Shown in pieces: positions 1,620 to 58,573 of a stretch of DNA of 64,000 nt (within the stretch, counting starts at the first letter, position 1; each line of letters begins with the position of its first letter). The position numbers and the translations under genes were made by a program. Source of the DNA: a phage; the sequence record PZ386959.1; one strand, given 5' to 3'. The notes under the pieces are model-generated. The model had not been told where the DNA came from, searched no databases, and saw nothing but the letters and a program-made list of their open reading frames with translations.

Positions 1620-3086
1620 ATGGCAGATATTACAGAAACACAAGAAAGCTTACCACCATTTAGAATGGGTGAAGTAGGTTCTTTGGGTCTGAAGGTTAAG
1701 AATGGAAGAATCTATGAAGAACCTCGTCAGGCACTAAGGTTCCCTGAAAGTATTAAAACTTTCCAATTAATGATGCGTGACCCTGCTGTAGCAGCATCTG
1801 TAAATATTATTAAGATGTTTGTCAGAAAAGTCAACTGGAGATTCGTACCTCCAAAGGGAAAAGAGCAAGACCCTAAAATGCTTGAGAGAGCAGACTTCTT
1901 TAATTCTTTAATGGATGACATGGAGCATGATTGGGCAGATTTTATTAACTCTGTAATGTCATTCTGCACTTATGGGTTCTGTGTTAACGAGAAAGTTTAT
2001 AAGAAGCGACAGGGTAAAAAAGGAAAGTACCAGTCAAAATTTGATGATGGTCTAATTGGATGGGCTAAATTACCAATCAGAAACCAATCAACACTTGATA
2101 AGTGGTATTTTGACGAAGACTTTAGAAAAGTTACTGGTGTTAGACAGAATCTGAGAAATGTTTCACATATTGCTGGAGCAATTAATCTTGGAGAAAGACC
2201 GCTAACAAGAAAACTTCCACGAGCTAAATTCATGCTGTTTAAGTATGACGATGAATATGGAAACCCAGAAGGTCGTTCACCATTACTTAATGCTTATGTA
2301 CCGTGGAAGTATAAAGTTCAGATTGAAGAGTACGAAGCTGTTGGCGTTTCAAGAGACTTGGTAGGTATGCCAAAGATTGGTTTACCACCAGATTATCTGG
2401 ATGAAAATGCAGAACCTGAAAAGAAAGCTTTCGTACAATACTGCAAAACTGTTGTTAACGATATGATTGCTAACGATAGAGCAGGTTTAATCTGGCCTAG
2501 ATATATCGACCCAGATACTAAAGAGGATATCTTTGAGTTCTCATTAGTTTCTAGACAGGGTGCTAAAGCATATGATACAGGTTCTATCATTGACAGATAT
2601 TCCAAGCAAATCATGATGGCATTTATGTCAGATGTTCTTGCTATGGGTCAGTCAAAATATGGTTCATTCTCTCTTGCAGATTCTAAGACAAGCTTACTAG
2701 CAATGTCAGTAGATATTCTGCTGAAGCAAATTAAGAACGTAATTAACCGTGATTTAGTTGCACAGACTTATGCTCTTAATATGTGGGACGATGAAGAACA
2801 TGTACAAATCACTTATGATGATATCGAAACTCCAGACCTTGAAGCAATTGGTTCTTATATCCAGAAGACTGTTGCAGTAGGTGCTTTGGAAGTTGACAAA
2901 GAGCTATCTAACAAGCTTAGAGAGCATATTGGTCTTCCTCCTGCTGATGAGTCTCAACCAGTATCTGAAAAGCTTTCTCCAAATAGCCAAAGCCGCTCAG
3001 GAGATGGTTATAAGACCGCTGGAGAAGGTACTGCAAAGACACCTTCAGCGAAAGACCCAAGCACAGCAAATAAGGCAAATAAATAA
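1620..3086 (+). CDS. portal protein (putative)
   Basis: 488-aa ORF directly after the terminase and before the prohead protease; call is from position and size only. Confidence 0.55.
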   Translation: MADITETQESLPPFRMGEVGSLGLKVKNGRIYEEPRQALRFPESIKTFQLMMRDPAVAASVNIIKMFVRKVNWRFVPPKGKEQDPKMLERADFFNSLMDDMEHDWADFINSVMSFCTYGFCVNEKVYKKRQGKKGKYQSKFDDGLIGWAKLPIRNQSTLDKWYFDEDFRKVTGVRQNLRNVSHIAGAINLGERPLTRKLPRAKFMLFKYDDEYGNPEGRSPLLNAYVPWKYKVQIEEYEAVGVSRDLVGMPKIGLPPDYLDENAEPEKKAFVQYCKTVVNDMIANDRAGLIWPRYIDPDTKEDIFEFSLVSRQGAKAYDTGSIIDRYSKQIMMAFMSDVLAMGQSKYGSFSLADSKTSLLAMSVDILLKQIKNVINRDLVAQTYALNMWDDEEHVQITYDDIETPDLEAIGSYIQKTVAVGALEVDKELSNKLREHIGLPPADESQPVSEKLSPNSQSRSGDGYKTAGEGTAKTPSAKDPSTANKANK

Positions 3087-3586
3087 TGGCTGAAGTTATC
3101 TCTATCTCAAATGCTACACGAGTGCATTCGTATAGGGGTGTCCTTATCATTACTGACAAGTTATCTGTAGAGGCTGGCTCAAGGGTCAGCCTTTCAGGTT
3201 ATGTTAGTGATGGTGGAATCTCTGACGTTTTCACTATTTGCAGGTTACTTGATGCACCAATGAGTGGAAAACCGTTTATTTCAGGAAATTGTAGTGAAAT
3301 TGTTAAAATTCCATTTGACAGTTCATGCCTTTTGGGTGTAAAGTTATATAACTGCGAGAATAAACGTGTCAATGTTAATAGCATTGAAGCCGCTTTCATT
3401 ACCCTCGATACTGCATTTCAATCTCCAATGACAGTTAATAAAGAAACAAACAGACTTGAATACATTTTTTCACAAAATGATTACAAAGTACTTGTCAAAG
3501 GTAAAGTATATGATATGATTGTAAATGTGGTAGATGAATCTGGTAACCATTCAACAGTCCTTAAACAAAAAGTAAGGTTTAATTAA
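3086..3586 (+). CDS. hypothetical head-module protein
   Basis: ORF whose start overlaps the portal stop; no motif recognised. Confidence 0.3.
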   Translation: MAEVISISNATRVHSYRGVLIITDKLSVEAGSRVSLSGYVSDGGISDVFTICRLLDAPMSGKPFISGNCSEIVKIPFDSSCLLGVKLYNCENKRVNVNSIEAAFITLDTAFQSPMTVNKETNRLEYIFSQNDYKVLVKGKVYDMIVNVVDESGNHSTVLKQKVRFN

Positions 3587-11258: not shown

Positions 11259-19277
<8,019 letters not shown>

Positions 19278-47469: not shown

Positions 47470-49614
47470 ATGAACAAAGTACAGATTATTAAAAAGAATG
47501 GCTCACTCGAAGAACCTGATATCAAAAAAGTTTTAGCAGCAGTCACAAAGTCAGCTAATAGGGTTGGGTATAAAGAACTCCCACCAGATGTTACTCAAGC
47601 TCTTGAGTCAGCATTTATGAGGATTCTGGTAAAATCTACTAAACAGAATAATTTACTAATTTCGGTAAACGATATTCACAGTATTGTTGAAGGTGCTTTG
47701 GCAGAGGTCAATCACGAGATTTATGAGTCTTACTCAACATACAGAAATTACCGTAAAGAGGTTGCTCAAAATTGGGATGAACTTTACCAAAAGACTAGAG
47801 ACACACTCTTCTTAGGTGACCGTGAAAATGCTAACTTTGACAGCAGTTTAATTTCTACGAAAGGTTCAATTATCCGTGGTTACCTGACTAAAGAAATCTT
47901 TAAACAGTATCATCTAACACCAGAGGAACTTGAAGCCATTGAGAAAGGCTTTATCTATATCCATGATTTGAGAGACCTGATTTTTGGTGGTATTAACTGT
48001 TGCCTGTTTGACATTGGTAAAGTACTAAAAGGCGGCTTTGAAATGTCCGGCATTGAGTACTGTGAACCTAAATCTGTACTGTCAGCGTTGCAGGTTATTG
48101 GTGACGTAGTACTTTCAGCAACTGCACAGCAATTTGGTGGTTTTACTTTAGCAGAGATTGATAAGGTACTTGTACCGTATGCTAAGAAGTCTCTACGCTA
48201 TCATGCTGAGAAAGCATCATCTTATGGTATTCCTAAAGAGCATTACCACAATTATGTAATGGAGCAGTTACAAATTGAACTGACTCAAGGTTTTCAGTCA
48301 CTTGAGATGAAACTAAATACCGTACCTTGTAGCCGTGGTGATTTTGCATTCACAACTTTAACATTTGGTTTACTTGACTCAGATATGTCTAATGATGATA
48401 ATCGACTACAATACATGATTGCAAGTACTCTCCTAGATGTTCGTATGAATGGACAAGGCAAGAGCAAAAAACCTGTTGTATTCCCTAAACTGGTTTATAT
48501 TTATGACCAGAAGAGACATGATGAAAATATCTGTCAAGGTCACCTGTACAGTAAAGCTATTGAGTGTTGCTCTAAAGCAATGTACCCAGATTTCTTAAGT
48601 GTGTCTGGTCATGGTGCTGTAGCAGAGGCTTTTGAGCGTTCTGGTAAGGTAATTTCACCGATGGGTTGCAGAGCCTTTTTATCTCCATATCTTAATGAGG
48701 GTGGAGAAGAGTTCTACGTTGGTCGTGCTAACATTGGTGCTGTATCTTTGAACTTACCAATGATTTACCAGTATTCTAAAGAGAATGGCTTAGATTTCTG
48801 GAAAGAGCTTGATAAGTACCTAGAGATGATTCGTAGTTTCCATAAGAAACGCTACGAAATGATTGCTAATATGCCAGCAAGCTCTAACCCTCTTGCATTC
48901 ACACAAGGTGGTCTGTACAAAGGAACTAAGAAACCTACTGACAAGGTTGGTTGGGATATTGTGAAGTCCTTCACAGCTTCTTTTGGTGTTACTGCGCTTG
49001 ATGAGTTGTCTGTTCTTGCTGAAGGTAAACGACTGCATGAAGTTGGAAGCTATAGTTTTGCATATGATGTTCTGGCATACATTAACATGAAAACCGAAGA
49101 GTTTAAAAATGAAGATGGCTTCTTATATGCCGTCTATGGTACTCCAGCAGAATCACTTTGCGGAACTCAACTAAAACAGTTCAGAGATATGTTTGGCGTT
49201 ATCAAAGGCGTTTCTGACAAGGAATACTTTACAAACAGTTTCCATATGAATGTTGCAGCAGACATCTCACCATTTGAGAAGCAGGACTTAGAAGAACCAT
49301 TCTTCCATATCTGTAGAGGCGGTAGAATCCAGTATGTAAGAGTAGCTAACCCAGAAAACTTATCAGCACTTAAGAGCTGTATTACAAGAGGGATGTTGAA
49401 AGGTTTCTATCAGGGACTTAACTTTGACTTAGCAATCTGTGAGCATTGTGGTAACAGACCAAAATCAGATGTTGAAGAGTGTGAAGTTTGTCACTCACAT
49501 GATATCTCTGTGATTAACAGGGTGTGTGGGTATCTTGGGTGGACTAAGATTAAAGGTGAATCCCGAATGAACGATGCAAAAATCGCTGAGATTCGTGACA
49601 GAGTTTCTATGTAA
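47470..49614 (+). CDS. nrdD: anaerobic ribonucleoside-triphosphate reductase (class III)
   Basis: C-terminal glycine-radical motif NRVCGYLGW and a zinc ribbon CEHCGN...CEVCHSHD; 714 aa. Confidence 0.85.
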   Translation: MNKVQIIKKNGSLEEPDIKKVLAAVTKSANRVGYKELPPDVTQALESAFMRILVKSTKQNNLLISVNDIHSIVEGALAEVNHEIYESYSTYRNYRKEVAQNWDELYQKTRDTLFLGDRENANFDSSLISTKGSIIRGYLTKEIFKQYHLTPEELEAIEKGFIYIHDLRDLIFGGINCCLFDIGKVLKGGFEMSGIEYCEPKSVLSALQVIGDVVLSATAQQFGGFTLAEIDKVLVPYAKKSLRYHAEKASSYGIPKEHYHNYVMEQLQIELTQGFQSLEMKLNTVPCSRGDFAFTTLTFGLLDSDMSNDDNRLQYMIASTLLDVRMNGQGKSKKPVVFPKLVYIYDQKRHDENICQGHLYSKAIECCSKAMYPDFLSVSGHGAVAEAFERSGKVISPMGCRAFLSPYLNEGGEEFYVGRANIGAVSLNLPMIYQYSKENGLDFWKELDKYLEMIRSFHKKRYEMIANMPASSNPLAFTQGGLYKGTKKPTDKVGWDIVKSFTASFGVTALDELSVLAEGKRLHEVGSYSFAYDVLAYINMKTEEFKNEDGFLYAVYGTPAESLCGTQLKQFRDMFGVIKGVSDKEYFTNSFHMNVAADISPFEKQDLEEPFFHICRGGRIQYVRVANPENLSALKSCITRGMLKGFYQGLNFDLAICEHCGNRPKSDVEECEVCHSHDISVINRVCGYLGWTKIKGESRMNDAKIAEIRDRVSM

Positions 49615-50921: not shown

Positions 50922-51407
50922 ATGAATTACATGGAGATTCGACCATTTGACACAGCTAATGGTGAAGGGGTTCGTGTAAGCCTCTTCGTAGCTGGTTGTA
51001 AGCATCACTGTGAAGGCTGCTTTAACAGGGAGTCTTGGAAGTTTAATGCTGGTAAAGTGTTTACTTATGCAAACCTCTACGGCATCATTAAATTAATGGA
51101 TGATGAGGCCATCAGTGGGTTGTCAATACTTGGTGGAGAGCCTCTGGATGATAGAAATATTCAAGAGGTTACCAACATATGCAAACGTATTAAAACAGTT
51201 TACCCAGAGAAGTCTATATGGCTCTGGACAGGTTTTCAACTACACGAAAAAATTCACTTAGATGTGATGAAATATGTTGACGTGGTGATTGATGGTAAGT
51301 ATGATTCATCTAAACCAACAGTCAAACCTTATCGTGGTTCTGATAACCAAAACCTCTGGAGAAAAGAGTATGGGTGGCAAGGTGATTGTCAATGGCGAGC
51401 AGAATAA
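50922..51407 (+). CDS. nrdG: anaerobic RNR activating protein (radical SAM)
   Basis: Radical-SAM cluster motif CKHHCEGC (Cx3Cx2C) near the N-terminus; 161 aa. Confidence 0.8.
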   Translation: MNYMEIRPFDTANGEGVRVSLFVAGCKHHCEGCFNRESWKFNAGKVFTYANLYGIIKLMDDEAISGLSILGGEPLDDRNIQEVTNICKRIKTVYPEKSIWLWTGFQLHEKIHLDVMKYVDVVIDGKYDSSKPTVKPYRGSDNQNLWRKEYGWQGDCQWRAE

Positions 51408-51488
51408 ATTTAAATGTTGGTGACAGTATTGTTGGTGTCACTGAAAAGAACTTAAAACATTTTGTGAAAAGATTGAGAGAGATATGAA

Positions 51489-51748: not shown

Positions 51749-52069
51749 ATGAGCAAAGTTTATAACACTCGTAAATTACAGATTTTCGTACTGTGCCAGT
51801 TTATGGCTAAAGAGCATAACTACTACTATTGTGGTACAGGATTCATTAGTGATAATGACGGCTCATATCTACCATTCAAAGAGGCTGTAAAGCTCTTCAA
51901 TGAAGAGAAAAGCTCTAAGAAAGATATTGAAAAGGTTAAGCTAACCTACAGCAAGAAAGACAAGAAGATTATCTGCCTAGATAACTTTGTAAAAGTTACT
52001 GGAGAAGCAAAAGAGTTTATGGATGAGAGTGAGATTTCATTCACAAGCATCTTGAAAGTAGCTCAGTAA
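51749..52069 (+). CDS. hypothetical protein
   Basis: 106-aa ORF followed by a terminator. Confidence 0.3.
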   Translation: MSKVYNTRKLQIFVLCQFMAKEHNYYYCGTGFISDNDGSYLPFKEAVKLFNEEKSSKKDIEKVKLTYSKKDKKIICLDNFVKVTGEAKEFMDESEISFTSILKVAQ

Positions 52070-52082
52070 AAAGATACTATAA

Positions 52083-52108
52083 GGGGACTGTAAAGGTTCC
52101 CTTTTTAT
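52083..52108 (+). terminator. rho-independent terminator
   Basis: Stem GGGGAC / GTTCCC with loop TGTAAAG, followed by TTTTTATTTTT. Confidence 0.55.
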
Positions 52109-52123
52109 TTTTGTGGAGATACT

Positions 52124-52639
52124 ATGTACCTGTCAAACCTGAAACGTTCTGCTGCAATATCTGTTCTGAGACTAAGCTTTGAAGAGCGTCAAGAGTTCAT
52201 TGATTCTCACCAATATGACCCTTCCAATTCCAATCACATGATTCTCTGGAACCGTGATAACTTCCGTGAAAGAGCACTTGTCCGTTATTACCCACACTAC
52301 ACAATAGATAACCTGTATGAATGGTGTGTTGTGAAGAACACTATTGCAACACTTAACAATCTTTGCAGGTATACAGGCAAGCAAACATTTACACTAGGTC
52401 ACCACAAGCCTGTTACAAAAGGTGGTGAACATCACTGTGCAAACTGGTTTATCCAAACTAAAGCTGATAACCAGAAGCAAGGAGATAGACTCCTAAGCAT
52501 CCCTAAGATGACCTATGAAGAGCAAGAGAGATATATCAAAAATAATATGCCAGATGTGCTTGACAACAACTATACAGATTTGGCAATATCTCTCCTGTTG
52601 AAGTTCGAGACAGTTTATAGGGCAACTTACAATGGCTAA
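52124..52639 (+). CDS. HNH endonuclease-like protein
   Basis: Segment LGHHKPVTKGGEHHCANWFIQTKADNQKQG fits the HNH (His-Me finger) pattern H-H...N...H/N. Confidence 0.5.
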   Translation: MYLSNLKRSAAISVLRLSFEERQEFIDSHQYDPSNSNHMILWNRDNFRERALVRYYPHYTIDNLYEWCVVKNTIATLNNLCRYTGKQTFTLGHHKPVTKGGEHHCANWFIQTKADNQKQGDRLLSIPKMTYEEQERYIKNNMPDVLDNNYTDLAISLLLKFETVYRATYNG

Positions 52640-52910
52640 AGAGAAGTGGGAAATTTTACCATTAGTGAGTGAAGGCGGTAACGGTTGTGAGATGTACATG
52701 ATACGTGGTCATGTACCAGAACCAATTGCACTTGAGATGGTAAACAATTTTACAGATGGCTCTTACAAAGATTTAGGAGAGCCAACTATAAAGCATCAAT
52801 GGGTCAAACCTGTACCAGACAGCACAGGTAACTGTAGTGTACTTTATCACGTTGTAGACCCTGCAAAATGCAAATCTGCAATGGCAGTAACAAACGTAAC
52901 TTTTGATTGA
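52632..52910 (+). CDS. hypothetical protein
   Basis: 92-aa ORF overlapping both neighbours. Confidence 0.3.
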   Translation: MAKEKWEILPLVSEGGNGCEMYMIRGHVPEPIALEMVNNFTDGSYKDLGEPTIKHQWVKPVPDSTGNCSVLYHVVDPAKCKSAMAVTNVTFD

Positions 52911-53803
52911 GAGAGAAAACTATGAAAACTGTTATTGAAGTCGTTGTCACCGCACAAGAGAAATTCTTCCACACAGAAAAATTTAATATCATCCAATTCC
53001 CATCTGGAGAAATTGGTGGAAACTTCTCTGAAGAATTTGTTAAGTTTACTGAGCGTAATGCTGGTAAGATTGACAATGTTATACTTACTGTGCAGGGATA
53101 TGATAAAGATACTCTGTTTGCATTAGCTTTGGCTAAGGATGCCGTTGACAGTCTTGTTCCATATAAGTCAGCGATGAAAACCGTTGTTTTCGGGTTCTTA
53201 CCAAATGCTCGGTATGACCGCCATATGTTCAAAGGTGATTCAGCAGCACTGAAAGCTTTTGCCAACCTCGTTAATGCAATGGGTTTTGATGCAGTATGTG
53301 CTCTTGACCCTCACAGTAATGTTGCAGAAAACTTATTTAAGTGCTTTCAGAGCATGAAGCAAAAAGATGTAGCAGTACACTTTGCAAGTGACCCACGCAT
53401 TGATTTCTTGGTAGCCCCAGATGCAGGCGCAGCTAAGAAGACTGAAGAGGCTGCTAAAGAGGTGGATAAACCATATATCACAATGTCTAAAGTGCGCAAT
53501 CTTAAGACTGGAGAAATCACTGGTATGCGAATCCTTGACGATGTTGATTTGACCGATAAAACTGTCATGATTCTCGATGATATCTGTGATGGTGGTCGAA
53601 CCTTCATAGAGGCAGCTAAACATCTTCGTGAAGCAGGTGCAAAACGTGTGGAACTCTATGTAACTCATGGCATTTTCTCTAAAGGGGTTGAAAACTTACT
53701 TGACAATGGTATTGACCATATCTACACTACAAACTCTTTAGGAGAAGCTAAAGACCGTGGCTTAACACATTATGCCCAAGTTACTGTAATTACCATTGAT
53801 TGA
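52907..53803 (+). CDS. ribose-phosphate pyrophosphokinase (Prs) family protein
   Basis: Matches Prs blocks: FGFLPNARYDRH (cf. FGYARQDR), LDPHSN (cf. DLHA), and the PRPP-binding loop VMILDDICDGGRTFIEAAKHLREAGAKRVELYVTHGIFS (cf. VLVDDMIDTGGT...THPIFSG). Confidence 0.8.
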   Translation: MREKTMKTVIEVVVTAQEKFFHTEKFNIIQFPSGEIGGNFSEEFVKFTERNAGKIDNVILTVQGYDKDTLFALALAKDAVDSLVPYKSAMKTVVFGFLPNARYDRHMFKGDSAALKAFANLVNAMGFDAVCALDPHSNVAENLFKCFQSMKQKDVAVHFASDPRIDFLVAPDAGAAKKTEEAAKEVDKPYITMSKVRNLKTGEITGMRILDDVDLTDKTVMILDDICDGGRTFIEAAKHLREAGAKRVELYVTHGIFSKGVENLLDNGIDHIYTTNSLGEAKDRGLTHYAQVTVITID

Positions 53804-53849: not shown

Positions 53850-55631
53850 ATGACTAAATCACTTTATGCAGTACCAGCAGGTTTAAACGCAGATGCTTAC
53901 AAATCTGGTCACATTTACCAGTACCCTAGTGCAACAGAGTACTTGATGTTTAACCTGACACCACGTAGTGACAAATGGTTTAACAGTCCCTTAGCAATTG
54001 ATGGTGTGGTTGCTTTTGGTATTCAACGTTTTGTTAAAGATTACTTGATAGACCACTGGAACGCCACCTTCTTTGAACGTGACAAAAAAGAAGCAATTGA
54101 CGAAATCTTAGAAGTCATGAACGGTGTTCTGGGTAAAGATGCTATTGGTCGAGAACATTGGGAAGCACTCCATGACTTAGGTTATCTTCCAGTTGAAGTA
54201 TACGCTGTAGAAGAAGGCACAGTTGTCCCTATGCGTGTACCAATGATTGTCTTCCAGAACACTGTCTCAGGTTTCCATTGGGTAGCGGGGTATCTGGAAG
54301 ATGCTTTCTCTGCTGAGATTTGGAAGGCTTGTACCATTGCAACTATTGCATTGCACTACAAACGTATTTGTAAGAAGTGGTCTGACCTTACTTGTGACAA
54401 TGACTTACATTTGCCTTATCAGTGCCATGACTTTGCTATGCGTGGTATGTCTGGCTTTACTGATGACGCATTTAATGCTGTAGGTCACTTAACCAGCTTT
54501 AAAGGGACTGATAGCTTCCCTGCTGTATACACGGCTAAACGCATCTATGGGCAGTCCTACCCAATCTCTGATATTGGTAGTTCTGTACCAGCCACTGAAC
54601 ACTCTGTAATGTGTGCAAACATTGCTTGGGAAGGTGGTAATGAGTTGATTGAAGAAGAAAGACGCTTTAAAGGTGAGTTACAAACCTTCCGTCGTTTCTT
54701 AACAGAAACTTACCCAACTGGTATTGCAAGTGTTGTTTCAGATACTTATAACTTCTGGAGAACTGTATCAGTTATATTACCAGAACTTCGTAAAGAGATT
54801 ATGGAACGTGATGGTAAACTGGTAATTCGCCCTGACTCTGGAGACCCTGTACATATTGTCACAGGTTATAAAGCAATCCACTTAGAATGTGCTAAGAAGG
54901 CTTATTACGAGCACCTAAGCAAGCTGGAAGCTAGTGACACAATGTTGAATGCTGTTCTGAACATGAAGCTTGAAAACATCAACTATGGCATTGCTGGATG
55001 GCTACTGTCAGAAGGATACGAAATGGTTGTTGACAGAGAAGACTTTGAAGTTGCTGATACAGTGATGTTGAAAAATGCTTATATGGTTGGTTCTGCAAAC
55101 GTTGTAACACGTCCTGTAGCTGAGATTGATGGAGCTATTAAGACACTGTACAACATCTTTGGTGGAGCTATTAACTCTAAAGGGTTTAAGGTACTGGATG
55201 AGCATATCGGCCTTATCTATGGTGACTCTATCACTCTGGAACGTGCAAACGAAATCCTGAAGCGTCTGTATGAAATGGGTTTTGCAAGCTCTAACGTAGT
55301 GTTTGGTGTAGGCTCTTACACTTACCAGTACATGACTCGTGACACCTTTGCATTTGCTGTCAAAGCAACTCTTGCAAGCATTGGTGGTAAAGAGATTATG
55401 CTTGCAAAAGACCCTAAAACAGATAGTGGTGTTAAGAAATCTGCCTTTGGTGGTGTAGCACCTATGTGGGATGGTGATAAGCTGAAAGCTGTAGATGGCT
55501 ATGGATTCCAGAGTTTTGCAGATGTACTTGACCACCCAGCTTGTGCTTTACGTTTAGTCTTTAGTGACTCTGAGCAGTTTGGTTACACAACTCTTGGTGA
55601 TATTCGAAATAATATTGACAAGCAGCTTTAA
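53850..55631 (+). CDS. nadV: nicotinamide phosphoribosyltransferase (NadV/NAMPT) family protein
   Basis: N-terminal ADAYKSGHIYQYP matches the NAMPT TDSYKVTHYKQYP signature; about 593 aa; start set at the ATG (MTKSLY) rather than the upstream TTG used by the track. Confidence 0.8.
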   Translation: MTKSLYAVPAGLNADAYKSGHIYQYPSATEYLMFNLTPRSDKWFNSPLAIDGVVAFGIQRFVKDYLIDHWNATFFERDKKEAIDEILEVMNGVLGKDAIGREHWEALHDLGYLPVEVYAVEEGTVVPMRVPMIVFQNTVSGFHWVAGYLEDAFSAEIWKACTIATIALHYKRICKKWSDLTCDNDLHLPYQCHDFAMRGMSGFTDDAFNAVGHLTSFKGTDSFPAVYTAKRIYGQSYPISDIGSSVPATEHSVMCANIAWEGGNELIEEERRFKGELQTFRRFLTETYPTGIASVVSDTYNFWRTVSVILPELRKEIMERDGKLVIRPDSGDPVHIVTGYKAIHLECAKKAYYEHLSKLEASDTMLNAVLNMKLENINYGIAGWLLSEGYEMVVDREDFEVADTVMLKNAYMVGSANVVTRPVAEIDGAIKTLYNIFGGAINSKGFKVLDEHIGLIYGDSITLERANEILKRLYEMGFASSNVVFGVGSYTYQYMTRDTFAFAVKATLASIGGKEIMLAKDPKTDSGVKKSAFGGVAPMWDGDKLKAVDGYGFQSFADVLDHPACALRLVFSDSEQFGYTTLGDIRNNIDKQL

Positions 55632-55644
55632 AAGTATATGATAA

Positions 55645-55670
55645 GAGGCTCCTACGGGAGCCTTTTTAAT
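55645..55670 (+). terminator. rho-independent terminator after nadV
   Basis: Stem AGGCTCC / GGAGCCT with loop TACG, followed by TTTTTAATTT. Confidence 0.65.
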
Positions 55671-56206: not shown

Positions 56207-58573
56207 ATGCGCATGGTAAACGACCACGCAGAAGTGATTAAGAGTTCAACTTCTTTAGAGACGTCTCAAGCACAGATTACAATGACACCTGAAATGTTCA
56301 GCCTTTTGAGTTCCGGTGTATACACATTTAAAGAAAGGGCAGTGATTCGTGAACTGTCATGTAACGCAGTAGATGCTCAAAAAGAAGCTGGAAAAGAGAA
56401 CATCCCGTTCCATGTGCATTTACCTACTCGATTTGAGCCTTACTTTGAAGTCCGTGACTTTGGAACTGGTTTAACCCATGACAAAGTAATGAGTTTGTAT
56501 CTGAACTATGGGGCTTCTACGAAGAATGACTCTAATGACTACATTGGTGCAATGGGTATCGGCTCAAAGTCACCGTTTGCGATTGCTCAGTCATTCACAG
56601 TGTCTAGCTATGTTGATGGTGTTGTTAATAAGTACTCTGTTTACCTTGAGAATGGTATTCCTCAAGTAACTAAGCTTACTACTAACCAAACAAATGAACC
56701 TAATGGTTTAGCTGTACGTGTGGCAGTTGCTGACCACCGTATTTCAAAGTTCTTTGAAGAGGCTGGTAATGTATACTCATACTTTGCTGTAAAACCAGAG
56801 AGTAATGTGGAGTATAATGATATATTAGCAGATATGGATGTGATTGCTCGTGAAGAAGGTGTCTATGATGCCATGACTCATAAGCATAGCTGGCGTTCAA
56901 GCAGCAATAGAACAGAGTTTAACGTGGTTATGGGTAATATTGCCTACCCAGTTAATATGGAGGCATTACTTGGTGATGATTTCTTCAAAGTATTACCAGA
57001 ATTTTTCCGCAGGAGCATAGACCTTGTAAACATCTACATGCCTATTGGTTCAGTTGCTATTGCAGCTTCTCGTGAAGCATTGCAGATGAATGACACGACA
57101 AAAAATGTTATCATCGAGGCTACTAAAAAGATAACTGAAGCAATTACAAAGGATGTTATCAAGAAAGTTAATAGTCAACCTACACTCATGGATGCTGCAC
57201 AGGCTTATGCTGAGTTACGCTTGAACTCACGAGAGATGTTTAATGCTGTGTGTCCAAAGCTAGAGTGGGGAGGCGTTAAGCTTGATTCTCTGGAAGAAGA
57301 ATTACTAAACATTCGTCGTGGGATTATCTACGCAGAAGACGGCTCAGTCATTTATGAACGTGACGGCAAAGGCAATATTAAGGTTGACAGCAAAGGAAAC
57401 AATATCCCTAAAGTTGACTACCTATACAATCCAGTTGCTTATGTCAAGTTCAACTCTTTAGAGAGTAAGATTCGTGCAACAGCACTTTCCTACACTCAAG
57501 AGGCAAGTATGTTCAATATCTTTGGTGCAATGCGTAAAAGTCAAATTGAACAGTTTTTGTTTGTTATTAATGACCGTCGCAATAAAAACGGTACTGAGAA
57601 GACTGTAGGCCGCAATCAGATTCTGCGTGGTGCATGTCGAGACTACGCCAGTGAGTCCAGTCTGTTTCACAGATATAATGGCATTGTGTTTGTATTCTCG
57701 ACTGAAAAAGAGTTAGATGATTTAATCAATCTACACAAACTTGATAAAAGCTTGTTAAAGATTGTGAAAATGTCTGATAAGGAGCACCATTACCAGCGTA
57801 AAGAAGCTGTAAGGGGTGTTGTAAAACTCTGGAAAGCTGTTCCAGCAGAAGGTGTAGCTTCCTATAAAGAGGTTTCAGAGGACTTTGATACAATTGAAGA
57901 GCCTCAGCTTTACATTAAGGCAGTTGGCGACACAGTTGATGGCGAATGTTTTTGCTCATCTCCAGAAGATGTAGCCAAGTCAGTTGCTAATGTTACAGGG
58001 AAGACAGTCTATGTTTTCCGAAAAGCAAATTGGAAAAAGATACCAGAAGACTGGATTGAAGTAGATGAGAAACTCTTGAACGACAGCTTAACTGATGTTC
58101 ATTGGATTAATCATAACAGATATATGACACGCATCTACATGAATGGTGTTCTTGACCTGACAAGCAGTTGGATTATTGCCAGAAACTTTACGTTCAATAA
58201 CAGGAAGATTTCTCGTGGCTATTGCTATTCACGGGATACAAACAAAACTATCTTCCTAGAAGGAAATGAAGATGCTGTAGAGGCAATGTTTGGTAAAATC
58301 CAATACGTTGCTGCACCATTTGCATACACTTATACTATTAGTGTATTGAAAACTTTGAAAGACTGTCTTGACAATGATACAAAGCTTTACAAGAAAATTA
58401 AGAAAGCTGGTGACCGTATGGTCATTAAGGTGACAAACTACCTTTCAAAAAGAAAACAAGAAAACTTCTTGCTTTCTCATTTGGATTGGAATAAAGTGTC
58501 ACCCATCGAAGTGAGTAAGTTCTTAGGCTTTGATGTAAAATGTGTTCCAGAAGGGACTACAATTTACGATTAA
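56207..58573 (+). CDS. rIIA: rIIA-like protein (GHKL/Bergerat ATPase fold N-terminus)
   Basis: RAVIRELSCNAVDA, VRDFGTGLT and SNDYIGAMGIGSKSPF match the T4 rIIA N-terminal blocks as I recall them (RAVVRELITNMIDA, CRDFGPG, SNDFIGGFGLGSKSPF). Confidence 0.8.
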   Translation: MRMVNDHAEVIKSSTSLETSQAQITMTPEMFSLLSSGVYTFKERAVIRELSCNAVDAQKEAGKENIPFHVHLPTRFEPYFEVRDFGTGLTHDKVMSLYLNYGASTKNDSNDYIGAMGIGSKSPFAIAQSFTVSSYVDGVVNKYSVYLENGIPQVTKLTTNQTNEPNGLAVRVAVADHRISKFFEEAGNVYSYFAVKPESNVEYNDILADMDVIAREEGVYDAMTHKHSWRSSSNRTEFNVVMGNIAYPVNMEALLGDDFFKVLPEFFRRSIDLVNIYMPIGSVAIAASREALQMNDTTKNVIIEATKKITEAITKDVIKKVNSQPTLMDAAQAYAELRLNSREMFNAVCPKLEWGGVKLDSLEEELLNIRRGIIYAEDGSVIYERDGKGNIKVDSKGNNIPKVDYLYNPVAYVKFNSLESKIRATALSYTQEASMFNIFGAMRKSQIEQFLFVINDRRNKNGTEKTVGRNQILRGACRDYASESSLFHRYNGIVFVFSTEKELDDLINLHKLDKSLLKIVKMSDKEHHYQRKEAVRGVVKLWKAVPAEGVASYKEVSEDFDTIEEPQLYIKAVGDTVDGECFCSSPEDVAKSVANVTGKTVYVFRKANWKKIPEDWIEVDEKLLNDSLTDVHWINHNRYMTRIYMNGVLDLTSSWIIARNFTFNNRKISRGYCYSRDTNKTIFLEGNEDAVEAMFGKIQYVAAPFAYTYTISVLKTLKDCLDNDTKLYKKIKKAGDRMVIKVTNYLSKRKQENFLLSHLDWNKVSPIEVSKFLGFDVKCVPEGTTIYD

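What the first reader, a model, noticed from the sequence alone, without database searches (positions are those of the whole stretch)
52124..52639. HNH endonuclease-like gene between nrdG and the Prs-like gene
The motif GHHKPVTKGGEHHCANWFIQTKADNQKQG fits an HNH His-Me finger. Its position between a radical-SAM activase and the NAD+ pair is typical of opportunistic homing-endonuclease insertions, and could mark a boundary of horizontally acquired DNA, with the NAD+ genes as possible cargo.
Basis: partly seen in the sequence, partly recalled or inferred. Interest (0 to 1): 0.35.

Follow-up and report, generated by a model that had tools for sequence, protein, structure and literature searches.

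The report
Conserved HNH-like anti-retron gene, not homing
The 171-codon gene is real and does carry a divergent HNH nuclease core, but it is a fixed, conserved gene of Felix O1-like phages and the orthologue of Bas63 gp77, which has been shown to help the phage overcome the bacterial retron Ec67, so it is not a mobile homing endonuclease marking foreign DNA.

Summary
The ORF (52124-52639, +, 171 aa) and its motif are exactly as described. The window is a Felixounavirus.

The protein has a divergent HNH (beta-beta-alpha-Me) core:
- H93, N107 and N116 are conserved with canonical spacing.
- AlphaFold2 (pLDDT 92) predicts beta-beta-alpha exactly there.
- The family profile aligns to a true Pfam HNH protein with 89.8% hhalign probability.
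- It lacks the zinc-knuckle cysteines and the metal-binding acidic residue before the catalytic His (G92), and no Pfam HNH model reaches threshold.

- The gene occurs in about 247 records, against 253 for the neighbouring Prs-like gene.
- It holds the same slot in five Ounavirinae lineages and diverges in step with backbone enzymes.
- dN/dS is 0.06-0.16, and GC content is flat.
- Genuine sporadic homing endonucleases (Pfam HNH_3+AP2, NUMOD3) do occur in relatives, but at neighbouring junctions.

The gene is 90% identical and syntenic to Bas63 gp77. In the PhageMaP knockout screen gp77 is dispensable on the other hosts seen but needed about 10-fold on retron Ec67 (Eco2). That paper's "GIY-YIG" label is unsupported. 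The downstream pair is the validated NARP1 system. The mechanism remains open.

The parts
52081..52103 (+). Terminator-like hairpin followed by a T-run, immediately upstream of the target. It closes the orf85-orf106 unit and marks the start of the target-orf92-adps-namat unit.
   Evidence: Pattern scan. Mordin's annotators placed a terminator at the equivalent position.
52115..52118 (+). Shine-Dalgarno-like GGAG, 5 nt upstream of the ATG
   Evidence: Read directly from the sequence.
52124..52639 (+). Target CDS, 171 aa. It is the orthologue of Bas63 gp77 (bas63_0077) and belongs to phrog_3500 / VOG1451.
   Evidence: 90% identity with no gaps to bas63_0077, in the same slot. The PhageMaP gp77 cloning primers map to 52124-52151 and 52613-52639.
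52388..52480 (+). HNH-like beta-beta-alpha-Me core (residues 89-119): predicted beta 89-93, loop with GG(100-101) and H103, beta 108-112, alpha 113-119. Putative catalytic His is H93 (52400-52402), structural Asn is N107 (52442-52444), putative metal-ligand Asn is N116 (52469-52471).
   Evidence: Family alignment A2, AlphaFold2 model with pLDDT 92, hhalign to a Pfam-true HNH.
52632..52910 (+). orf92 (phrog_4726, function unknown). Its ATG overlaps the target's stop codon (ATGGCTAA), which suggests translational coupling. It is the orthologue of Bas63 gp78.
   Evidence: 99% identical to bas63_0078.
52922..53803 (+). Prs-like gene, the orthologue of Bas63 gp79 (Adps of NARP1). The likely true start is the ATG at 52922 (MKTVIE...), not the TTG at 52907 listed mechanically.
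   Evidence: Pfam Pribosyltran/Pribosyl_synth. 95% identity to bas63_0079. The Bas63g79_F primer begins atgaaaactgttattgaa. NARP1 was shown experimentally in Bas63 genes 79-80.
53850..55631 (+). Nampt-like gene, the orthologue of Bas63 gp80 (Namat of NARP1). The likely start is the ATG at 53850 (MTKSLYAVP).
   Evidence: Pfam NAPRTase/NAMPT_N. 98% identity to bas63_0080. Bas63g80_F primer. NARP1 paper.
55643..55666 (+). Terminator-like hairpin closing the four-gene unit
   Evidence: Pattern scan. Mordin has an annotated terminator at the equivalent place.
51749..52069 (+). orf106 (Pfam DUF7390). This is the ORF that Felix O1-lineage records label 'putative HNH endonuclease' or 'homing endonuclease', although no HNH evidence was found for it here.
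   Evidence: Labels. Pfam gives DUF7390 only and PHROGs give phrog_4462 'unknown'. No NCBIfam hit.

Best explanation
The ORF is a vertically inherited, non-mobile accessory gene of Ounavirinae phages. It encodes a small helical protein built around a divergent HNH-superfamily (beta-beta-alpha-Me, 'HNN') core. It is the orthologue of Bas63 gp77, which is dispensable on the other hosts I could inspect but is needed for full plating on cells carrying retron Ec67 (Retron-Eco2). It most likely works as an anti-defence factor that uses its HNH-like nucleic-acid-binding or cleaving core on a nucleic-acid component of the retron pathway. It is transcribed in one terminator-bounded unit with orf92 and the NARP1 NAD+-reconstitution genes, so this stretch of the genome acts as a counter-defence cluster.

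Shown here: the gene is real, conserved and under purifying selection; its position is fixed; it is homologous to HNH; it is orthologous to gp77.
Shown by others in the orthologue: the Ec67-specific fitness defect and its complementation in trans.
Inferred: that this copy has the same role, and that the mechanism involves binding or cutting nucleic acid.

Later structural work shows that msDNA decay activates Eco2. I therefore think shielding of the msDNA cage, or destruction of the precursor RNA, is more likely than the originally proposed destruction of mature msDNA.
For: Orthology: 154/171 identical with no gaps to bas63_0077, with the same flanking genes. PhageMaP's gp77 cloning primers map to the first and last codons of the ORF.

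Phenotype in the orthologue: gene 77 scores -0.29, -0.63 and -0.51 on the Ec67 host, against about +0.9 to +1.4 on the other hosts shown. Genes 78-80 are unaffected on Ec67. A clean deletion lowers plating 10-fold and is complemented in trans. Independently, Eco2 defends broadly against BASEL phages but not against Felixounavirus.

HNH core:
- H93, G100, G101, H103, N107 and Q111 are invariant and N116 is nearly invariant across 23 diverse members, with canonical spacing.
- The AlphaFold2 model (pLDDT 92.1, pTM 0.89) has beta 89-93, beta 108-112 and alpha 113-119.
- phrog_2214 'HNH endonuclease' matches at E=2.9e-6.
- The family profile hits a true Pfam HNH protein, P0051, at E=3e-4 in a library of 1.84 billion proteins.
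- hhalign gives probability 89.8% (E=1.8e-6) to a 98-aa Pfam HNH (5.7e-17) protein.
- Pfam HNH is the commonest weak hit across the family.
- The Foldseek top lists are dominated by HNH domains, and the only NCBIfam hit is to the HNH region of IscB.

Not mobile: it matches at >=60% identity in 247 records, against 253 for the Prs-like gene. It holds the same slot in Felixounavirus, Suspvirus, Mooglevirus, Kolesnikvirus and Wc4-1. Its identity tracks nrdD, nadV and prs. dN/dS is 0.06-0.16.

Operon: terminator-like hairpins sit at 52081-52103 and 55643-55666, and the target's stop overlaps the orf92 start.
Against: - The anti-Ec67 phenotype comes from one preprint, is modest (10-fold), and was measured in a 90%-identical orthologue, not in this phage.
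- No biochemical activity is known for any member of the family.
- G92 occupies the position of the metal-ligand Asp/His that precedes the catalytic His in characterised HNH enzymes, so catalysis is uncertain.
- The family is conserved far more deeply than is usual for anti-defence genes, across Ounavirinae, Stephanstirmvirinae and a Nanhuvirus. In Stephanstirmvirinae it sits beside a UvrD/Rep helicase and not beside NAD genes.
- BASEL Stephanstirmvirinae are reported as sensitive to Eco2, yet Bas62 carries a 42% identical homologue with the motif intact.
- msDNA degradation activates Eco2 and does not disarm it, which conflicts with the only published mechanistic proposal.
Confidence: 0.6

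Rival explanations
1. A housekeeping DNA-metabolism nuclease or nickase (replication, recombination or repair, or host-DNA processing). Its effect on retron Ec67 would then be indirect, for example by changing which DNA ends, ssDNA or nucleases are present and so changing whether the retron is triggered.
For: The gene is embedded in the nucleotide-metabolism and replication module. In Stephanstirmvirinae it lies one or two genes from a UvrD/Rep-family helicase and close to nrdD/nrdG. It is deeply conserved and diverges like the enzymes. Homologue-bearing Stephanstirmvirinae are still Eco2-sensitive. There is a weak PHROG hit to endonuclease VII (E=0.015).
Against: Knockout fitness is about 1 on the non-Ec67 hosts I could inspect, and the only validated phenotype is defence-specific. 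One natural isolate, ULIM3, carries a nonsense codon at position 117, which argues against an essential replication role. No solved recombination nuclease appears among the structural matches.
Confidence: 0.25
2. A catalytically dead HNH-like fold that acts only as a nucleic-acid or protein binder, for example a shield for the msDNA cage or an inhibitor of the triggering nuclease.
For: G92 replaces the canonical metal-ligand residue and the zinc-knuckle cysteines are absent. msDNA decay activates Eco2, so a protector would fit a counter-defence role better than a destroyer.
Against: H93, N107 and N116, the residues that matter for catalysis, are invariant or nearly invariant across the family at 33-50% identity. 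That is hard to explain if chemistry were lost. HNN variants without zinc knuckles can be active (general knowledge of I-HmuI and endonuclease VII-type enzymes, not tested here).
Confidence: 0.1
3. A free-standing HNH homing endonuclease that inserted opportunistically between nrdG and the NAD+ genes.
For: The protein has an HNH-like motif. Felix O1-type genomes are known to carry several HNH homing endonucleases. Relatives carry sporadic endonuclease genes close by, after nrdD, at orf92|prs and at prs|nampt.
Against: It is present in essentially every relative at the same slot. It co-diverges with the backbone and dN/dS is 0.06-0.16. It has no NUMOD, AP2 or IENR-type DNA-binding module and no Pfam HNH hit, whereas the truly sporadic neighbours hit HNH_3 at 1e-19 plus AP2 or NUMOD3. 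GC content shows no discontinuity.
Confidence: 0.03
4. A GIY-YIG nuclease, as labelled in the PhageMaP gene table.
For: The label 'GIY-YIG catalytic domain protein*' in the PhageMaP tables, which was assigned manually from a BLASTp best description.
Against: None of 23 family members matches any GIY-YIG Pfam model even at E<=10, while HNH is the top recurrent weak hit. PHROGs, NCBIfam, hhalign and Foldseek all point to HNH. The Tyr-rich stretch 55-66 is predicted to be helical, not a beta-hairpin.
Confidence: 0.02

Closest known systems
Bas63 (Escherichia phage JohannRWettstein) gp77, bas63_0077 / QXV81768.1: counter of retron Ec67 in the PhageMaP screen (bioRxiv 10.1101/2024.10.10.617714)
   Same: Same length (171 aa), 90% identical with no gaps, and an identical HNH-like core. 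Same position between the orf106 and orf92 orthologues, upstream of NARP1.
   Different: It is a different phage isolate, with 17 substitutions that fall mostly outside the core. The phenotype has not been tested for this copy. The paper calls it GIY-YIG, which my analyses do not support.
Canonical small HNH / McrA-like nucleases (Pfam PF01844, PF14279), e.g. the 98-aa 'McrA protein' of Synechococcus phage S-SCSM2R
   Same: Same H-x2-P...GG...N...x8...N layout. hhalign probability 89.8% over 62 columns, 32% identity. Predicted beta-beta-alpha.
   Different: Gly replaces the Asp before the catalytic His. Thr and Asp replace the CxxC zinc-knuckle cysteines. The protein has an extra N-terminal four-helix region of about 85 aa and a C-terminal helical region of about 50 aa. 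It is below Pfam thresholds, and there is no significant whole-fold match in the PDB.
Free-standing HNH_3+AP2 and NUMOD3-type homing endonucleases of Felix O1-like phages (e.g. SUSP1 gp076, ULIM3 WPJ69737)
   Same: Same superfamily of catalytic motif and the same genomic neighbourhood.
   Different: Those genes are sporadic, sit at gene junctions, carry DNA-binding modules and hit Pfam HNH_3 at about 1e-19. The target is universal, has a fixed position, has no such module and is under purifying selection.
T5 Rad (retron anti-defence protein, 189 aa)
   Same: A small phage protein that neutralises retron Ec67, among other retrons. It is proposed to act on the retron's nucleic acid, the ncRNA precursor.
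   Different: Rad is described as primase/helicase-TOPRIM-like, not HNH. It is not detected as a homologue in any search here, and its phage distribution is different.
Accessory genes embedded in NARP1 loci (RyDEP glycosidase; Macro-domain phosphatases countering aRES)
   Same: A small gene co-located and probably co-transcribed with Adps/Namat in a counter-defence cluster.
   Different: There is no sequence relationship. The target's knockout phenotype is on a retron, and NARP1 genes show no defect on that host. Outside Ounavirinae the family is not next to NAD genes.

Membership tests
HNH / His-Me finger (beta-beta-alpha-Me) superfamily | Catalytic (general-base) His at the end of beta-1, in an H-x-x-P context | tested here: met
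   H93 is invariant in 23 diverse members. It aligns to the His of 'DH' in a Pfam-true HNH and lies at the end of predicted strand 89-93.
HNH / His-Me finger (beta-beta-alpha-Me) superfamily | Structural Asn before beta-2, and a C-terminal His/Asn metal ligand in the alpha-helix nine residues later | tested here: met
   N107 is invariant and N116 is >=90% conserved. The N-to-N spacing of 9 matches the aligned Pfam-true HNH.
HNH / His-Me finger (beta-beta-alpha-Me) superfamily | Acidic or His metal ligand immediately before the catalytic His (DH / HH / EH) | tested here: not met
   G92 is >=90% conserved and aligns to the Asp of 'DH'.
HNH / His-Me finger (beta-beta-alpha-Me) superfamily | Two CxxC zinc knuckles (typical of the PF01844 type, not universal in the superfamily) | tested here: not met
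   T112 and D115 replace the second pair. Only one upstream Cys (C81) is present and it is not conserved.
HNH / His-Me finger (beta-beta-alpha-Me) superfamily | Beta-beta-alpha secondary structure at the motif | tested here: met
   The AlphaFold2 model (pLDDT 92.1) has E89-93, E108-112 and H113-119.
HNH / His-Me finger (beta-beta-alpha-Me) superfamily | Significant profile match to curated HNH models | tested here: inconclusive
   No Pfam HNH model reaches its gathering score. The best match is E=0.0085 in 4 of 23 members. On the other side, phrog_2214 HNH matches at 2.9e-6, the family profile hits Pfam-true HNH P0051 at 3e-4 in the whole library, and hhalign gives 89.8% to a Pfam-true HNH.
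HNH / His-Me finger (beta-beta-alpha-Me) superfamily | Structural similarity to solved HNH domains | tested here: inconclusive
   The top 13 PDB hits are all HNH domains (Cas9 HNH, Gme HNH 4h9d, ScoMcrA), but E>=0.25 and TM is 0.22-0.30. In BFVD the best hit annotated as HNH outside the family is the Aeh1 HNH at E=8e-3, TM 0.52.
HNH / His-Me finger (beta-beta-alpha-Me) superfamily | Metal-dependent nuclease activity | not testable with these tools
   This needs purified protein and an H93A control.
Free-standing homing endonuclease gene | Sporadic presence or absence among close relatives, with empty-site alleles | tested here: not met
   247 records carry the target at >=60% identity, against 253 for the Prs-like neighbour. 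It was present in the same slot in all 11 Ounavirinae loci inspected. No empty site was seen.
Free-standing homing endonuclease gene | Evolution decoupled from the host genome (HGT, decay, relaxed selection) | tested here: not met
   Identity tracks nrdD, nadV and prs across genera. dN/dS is 0.06-0.16. GC content is flat. The only sign of decay is one nonsense allele in ULIM3.
Free-standing homing endonuclease gene | Nuclease core fused to a sequence-reading DNA-binding module (NUMOD, IENR1, AP2, HTH) | tested here: not met
   No such Pfam domain was found. The sporadic neighbours used as positive controls do have them.
GIY-YIG nuclease | Match to GIY-YIG profiles and an alpha/beta core with a GIY...YIG hairpin | tested here: not met
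   0 of 23 members match at E<=10. The Tyr-rich segment 55-66 is predicted to be helical.
Bas63 gp77 family (anti-retron Ec67 factor, PhageMaP) | Orthology: full-length high identity and conserved synteny | tested here: met
   90% identity over 171/171 residues, with flanking genes 95-99% identical in the same order. The cloning primers map to the ORF ends.
Bas63 gp77 family (anti-retron Ec67 factor, PhageMaP) | Deletion lowers plating on Ec67 cells and is complemented in trans | not testable with these tools
   Reported for Bas63 only.
NARP1 operon accessory gene | Co-transcription and a shared phenotype with Adps/Namat, and co-localisation wherever the family occurs | tested here: not met
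   The four genes are probably co-transcribed (terminators bracket them). However, genes 78-80 show no defect on Ec67 where gene 77 does. In Stephanstirmvirinae the homologue sits by a helicase, about 9.5 kb from the phosphoribosyltransferase/macrodomain genes.

The most novel reading that the evidence does not exclude
The gp77 family is a new kind of retron antagonist: an HNH-derived protein with a remodelled metal site (Gly in place of the ligand Asp). It would disarm Retron-Eco2 not by destroying msDNA, which is now known to activate Eco2, but by another route. Possible routes are binding and shielding the branched msDNA cage from phage- or host-nuclease-initiated decay, or selectively cutting the ncRNA precursor. 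In Ounavirinae it would have been recruited into a single counter-defence transcription unit with NARP1.
Probability: 0.25. Interest if true: 0.6.

Novelty: already known. Interest (0 to 1): 0.3.

Why it matters
For genome annotation there are four corrections:
- This ORF should not be called a homing endonuclease or used as a marker of acquired DNA.
- The 'HNH endonuclease' label that circulates in Felix O1-type records sits on the wrong neighbour (orf106).
- The 'GIY-YIG' label given to the experimentally studied orthologue is unsupported.
- The family (phrog_3500 / VOG1451, 'unknown function') is best described as a divergent HNH-like protein with a reported anti-retron phenotype.

For phage-defence biology there are two points. 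The only proposed mechanism, cleavage of Ec67 msDNA, conflicts with later structures showing that msDNA decay switches Eco2 on, so the mode of action of gp77 is an open and directly testable question. The conserved residues identified here (H93, H103, N107, N116 and the unusual G92) are the obvious mutagenesis targets.

Tried and rejected
- **Sequence search against PDB.** The single sequence and the family profile gave no HNH hit. They gave only a repeat-inflated similarity of residues 12-65 to the Staphylococcus protein A domain, with per-domain E about 1-8. I rejected this as a chance or helical-bias match.
- **Pfam on the target and on distant members.** No family reached threshold. DUF7167 (residues 128-152, E=0.007) and DUF7435 were too weak to use.
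- **Foldseek against PDB.** No individually significant hit, so I used it only as a qualitative enrichment for HNH.
- **hhalign against the triple-HNH protein P0051.** Probability was only 11.9%, because the template is a single sequence of repeats. I did not rely on it and used the McrA-like protein instead.
- **Functional link to NARP1.** I considered this because of the operon structure. The knockout data and the different context in Stephanstirmvirinae speak against it.
- **T5 Rad as a relative.** Rejected, because Rad has TOPRIM-like domains.
- **The orf106-target fusion protein P0002 as Rosetta-stone evidence.** It is a deletion variant on one 1.3-kb metagenomic contig, so I gave it no weight.
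- **Active-site geometry in the model.** I wanted to inspect it, but the coordinates are not exposed to scripts.
- **Guessed BASEL accessions.** Four probes (MZ501111, MZ501108, MZ501078, MZ501084) returned other BASEL phages before Bas63 was found at MZ501086. MZ501084 proved useful later as Bas62.
Full report
**1. Observation.** It starts at the ATG at 52124, stops at 52637-52639, lies on the + strand and encodes 171 aa. A GGAG sits 5 nt upstream of the start. Residues 92-120 read GHHKPVTKGGEHHCANWFIQTKADNQKQG. The local gene order is nrdG (50922-51407), orf85, orf106, the target, orf92, a Prs-like gene and a Nampt-like gene. So the target lies between nrdG and the Prs-like gene but is not adjacent to either. 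It is a real gene: it is a full-length match to phrog_3500, 'unknown function', at E=7.9e-92, and tblastn finds it in 430 phage records.

**2. Identity of the window.** The 3.1-kb region matches 258 phage records at 60-99% nucleotide identity, almost all of them Felixounavirus and related Ounavirinae of Escherichia, Salmonella, Shigella and Citrobacter. The window is therefore a Felix O1-like myovirus.

**3. Is it HNH?** Pfam gives no HNH hit for the target, but several independent lines of evidence agree.

- (a) In an alignment of 23 members down to 33% identity, H93, G100, G101, H103, N107 and Q111 are invariant and N116 is at least 90% conserved. The spacing H-x2-P...GG...N-x8-N is the canonical HNH layout.
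- (b) AlphaFold2 gives a confident model (pLDDT 92.1, pTM 0.89) with strand 89-93, strand 108-112 and helix 113-119. This places a beta-beta-alpha exactly on the motif, embedded in an otherwise helical protein.
- (c) PHROGs give phrog_2214 'HNH endonuclease' at E=2.9e-6, plus four weaker HNH families and endonuclease VII.
- (d) An exhaustive profile search of 1.84 billion representative proteins finds only 18 clusters, so the family is small. The most distant, P0051 (E=3e-4), is a true Pfam HNH/HNH_5 protein.
- (e) The family profile aligns to a 98-aa 'McrA' protein of Synechococcus phage S-SCSM2R, which is Pfam HNH at 5.7e-17, with hhalign probability 89.8% and E=1.8e-6. The alignment puts H93, N107 and N116 on that protein's H, N and N.
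- (f) Across the 23 members, Pfam HNH is the most frequent weak hit (4 members, plus 1 for HNH_5), and GIY-YIG is never hit even at E<=10.
- (g) Foldseek finds no individually significant PDB match (best E=0.25), but the first 13 hits are all HNH domains: Cas9 HNH, Gme HNH 4h9d and ScoMcrA. Most of the weaker BFVD hits outside the family are named HNH endonucleases.
- (h) The only NCBIfam hit is to the HNH region of IscB.

There are also real departures from the canonical family. G92, at least 90% conserved, occupies the place of the Asp/His/Glu metal ligand that precedes the catalytic His. The CxxC zinc-knuckle cysteines are replaced by T112 and D115, and only a non-conserved C81 lies upstream. 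I therefore call it a divergent HNH-superfamily ('HNN') core whose catalytic competence is unproven.

**4. Is it a homing endonuclease or an insertion?** No.

- *Distribution.* tblastn finds the target at >=60% identity in 247 records. The neighbouring Prs-like protein is found at >=60% in 253.
- *Position.* In every Ounavirinae locus inspected the gene occupies the same slot, upstream of orf92, prs-like and nampt-like. These loci are wV8, warpig, Pr103Blw, ULIM3 and Bas63 (Felixounavirus), SUSP1 (Suspvirus), Mordin and Sf17 (Mooglevirus), Roscha1 (Kolesnikvirus) and Pectobacterium phage Wc4-1. This holds even where the upstream genes differ.
- *Divergence.* Its identity tracks that of the backbone enzymes. 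It is 74-78% in Suspvirus and Mooglevirus, where nrdD is 77-78% and nadV 75-76%. It is 43% in Kolesnikvirus, where prs is 40% and nadV 46%. It is 39% in Wc4-1, where prs is 45% and nadV 50%.
- *Selection.* dN/dS against seven orthologues is 0.055-0.164, comparable to orf92.
- *Composition.* GC content is flat at 0.37-0.42 across 46-60 kb.

Genuinely sporadic genes do occur in this interval in relatives.
- A 163-aa ORF lies between prs and nampt in ULIM3 and SUSP1 (Pfam HNH_3 at about 1e-19, plus a sub-threshold AP2 match in ULIM3).
- A NUMOD3/colicin-DNase-like ORF lies after nrdD in SUSP1.
- Bas63's nrdD is interrupted by a homing-endonuclease gene.
- Two unannotated ORFs lie between orf92 and prs in Pr103Blw and Mordin.

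These serve as positive controls for what a homing endonuclease looks like in these genomes, and the target does not look like them. The one hint of dispensability in nature is a TAG at codon 117 in ULIM3.

**5. The 'boundary of acquired DNA' idea.** A mosaic tract does exist, but not at the target. Against most Felixounaviruses the window is 85-99% identical at the nucleotide level through the target and orf92. Identity then drops to 60-79% from about 52900 to about 53400, the 5' half of the prs-like gene, and returns to 90-99% afterwards. At the protein level Prs is 78-79% identical to the four Felixounavirus relatives compared, and about 200 records fall in the 60-90% bands. It is 95-99% identical to a minority of about 50 records that includes Bas63. 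This is an allelic replacement inside a resident gene. It starts at the orf92|prs junction, where other phages carry insertions. The prs/nampt pair itself is present in all lineages, so it is not cargo.

**6. What the gene is.** A literature search led to PhageMaP (bioRxiv 10.1101/2024.10.10.617714), a genome-wide knockout screen of the Felixounavirus Bas63 (JohannRWettstein).

[quoted passage not shown] This is the window's order.
- *Primers.* The paper's cloning primers for gp77 begin atgtatctgtcaaacctaaaacgttctg and end, after reverse complementing, gtttatagggcaacttacaatggctaa. They map to 52124-52151 with 2 mismatches and to 52613-52639 with 0 mismatches.
- *The Bas63 record.* I located it as MZ501086. 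bas63_0077 is a 171-aa 'hypothetical protein', 154/171 identical to the target with no gaps and an identical core. It is flanked by orthologues of orf106 (97%), orf92 (99%), Prs-like (95%) and Nampt-like (98%).
- *Screen values.* Gene 77 has fitness of about +0.9 to +1.4 on the other hosts shown but -0.29, -0.63 and -0.51 on cells carrying retron Ec67. Genes 78-80 are unaffected there.
- *Validation.* A clean deletion lowered plating 10-fold on Ec67 cells and was complemented in trans.
- *The label.* 'GIY-YIG' was assigned 'manually after BLASTp search' and is contradicted by the evidence in section 3.
- *Downstream genes.* Genes 79-80 of Bas63 are the experimentally established NARP1 pathway, Adps plus Namat. 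The 'NAD+ pair' in this window is therefore NARP1.
- *Neighbouring counter-defence genes.* PhageMaP also found that genes 84/85 counter qatABCD. Gene 84 corresponds to the rIIA-like ORF starting at 56207, whose start matches the Bas63g84_F primer. This part of the genome is therefore a counter-defence neighbourhood.

**7. Mechanism.** PhageMaP proposed that gp77 cleaves and inactivates Ec67 msDNA. Two later structural studies of Retron-Eco2 (Ec67) complicate this. They show that the msDNA cages the TOPRIM RNase domains in a trimer. Phage DenB, or DNase I, initiates msDNA decay, which activates TOPRIM to cut tRNAs. Simple destruction of mature msDNA should therefore trigger the system and not disarm it.

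The same study reports that Eco2 defends against many BASEL families, including Stephanstirmvirinae, but not against Felixounavirus. That fits a Felixounavirus-encoded counter. However, the Stephanstirmvirinae phage Bas62 carries a 42% identical homologue with the motif intact, next to an intein-containing UvrD/Rep helicase. So either the anti-Eco2 activity is lineage-specific or the family's primary role lies elsewhere.

The T5 anti-retron protein Rad, which lowers ncRNA and msDNA levels, is TOPRIM-like and unrelated to the target.

My best reading, with overall confidence 0.6, is that the target is a conserved accessory HNH-like protein that counteracts Retron-Eco2 by acting on a nucleic-acid component. 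Shielding of the cage or destruction of the precursor fits current knowledge better than destruction of mature msDNA. The main rival, at 0.25, is a DNA-metabolism nuclease whose effect on the retron is indirect.

**8. Expression context.** Terminator-like hairpins at 52081-52103 and 55643-55666 bracket target-orf92-adps-namat, and Mordin's annotators marked terminators at the equivalent sites. The target's stop codon overlaps the orf92 start (ATGGCTAA).

**9. Verdict.** The HNH assignment is supported in a qualified way. The gene is the orthologue of an already described anti-retron factor. What this analysis adds is the corrected fold assignment (HNH-like, not GIY-YIG), the unusual features of the active site, the evidence of deep vertical conservation, and the conflict between the published mechanistic proposal and the current Eco2 model. 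Interest is modest at 0.3. Within the literature I could search, no follow-up on gp77 exists.

Noticed in passing
window 52900-53400 (5' half of the Prs-like/Adps gene): There is a sharp allelic mosaic. Nucleotide identity to the four Felixounavirus relatives compared drops to 60-79% here, while flanks are 85-99%. The protein is 78-79% identical to those relatives and 95-99% identical to a minority of records, about 50, that includes Bas63 and AYO145A. The tract starts exactly at the orf92|prs junction, where Pr103Blw and Mordin carry about 1 kb of extra ORFs. This could be a co-conversion scar of past insertions.
   Followed up: partly
window 51749-52069 (orf106): This is the ORF that Felix O1, wV8, warpig, Sf17 and PhageMaP label 'putative HNH endonuclease' or 'homing endonuclease'. 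It matches only Pfam DUF7390 and phrog_4462 (function unknown), with no HNH signal. The label may have been displaced from the neighbouring gene, or it may simply be wrong.
   Followed up: partly
L004 (ULIM3) 2722-3237, equivalent to window 52472-52474: The ULIM3 orthologue has an in-frame TAG at codon 117, directly after the putative metal-ligand N116, and its annotators split the gene in two. This is either a natural loss-of-function allele or a sequencing error.
   Followed up: no
window 51409-51431, about 52918 and about 53800, relative to L001-L004 and L009-L010: There are three insertion and length-variation hot-spots in relatives. After nrdG there are indels of 30-224 bp. At orf92|prs there are two unannotated ORFs of about 150 aa in Pr103Blw and Mordin, with no Pfam hit. 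At prs|nampt there is a 163-aa HNH_3 homing endonuclease in ULIM3 and SUSP1, with a weak AP2 match in ULIM3.
   Followed up: partly
window 52124-52320 (residues 12-65 of the target): The N-terminal helices show a recurrent local similarity to the Staphylococcus protein A three-helix domain (LSFEERQEFIDSHQYDPSNSN against [22 protein letters not shown]). The whole-sequence E-value of 2e-10 is inflated by the repeats in the PDB constructs, and per-domain E is about 1-8. It is probably chance.
   Followed up: no
P0002 (ENA contig, 259 aa) and BFVD A0A653G1G4 (VpaE1_ev78, 261 aa): Some sequences encode a fusion of orf106 (residues 1-78) with the whole target, made by a deletion that removes the end of orf106 and half of the intervening terminator. 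The two ORFs are in the same reading frame in the window.
   Followed up: partly
window 56207-58573 and downstream: The 788-aa rIIA-like ORF is the orthologue of Bas63 gene 84 (its start matches the cloning primer). With gene 85 it was reported to counter the qatABCD defence system, so 52-60 kb of the window is a cluster of counter-defence genes.
   Followed up: no
window 47470-49614 compared with L018 8631-11517: nrdD is uninterrupted in this window (714 aa). In Bas63 it is a two-piece joined CDS that encloses a 'putative homing endonuclease' (bas63_0068). SUSP1 and warpig have an endonuclease gene just after nrdD.
   Followed up: no
one search hit list (GU169904.1, MG065645.1): Records named 'Staphylococcus phage SA1' (147 kb) and 'Campylobacter phage A145' carry close copies of this enterobacterial-phage gene, at 91% and 42% identity. 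This suggests mislabelled or chimeric database records.
   Followed up: no
L019 (Bas62) 11867-14082: In the Stephanstirmvirinae phage Bas62 a macrodomain protein, a phosphoribosyltransferase and a HAD-like protein form a cluster about 9.5 kb from the target's homologue. This may be relevant to the published NARP1, Macro-domain and aRES interplay.
   Followed up: no
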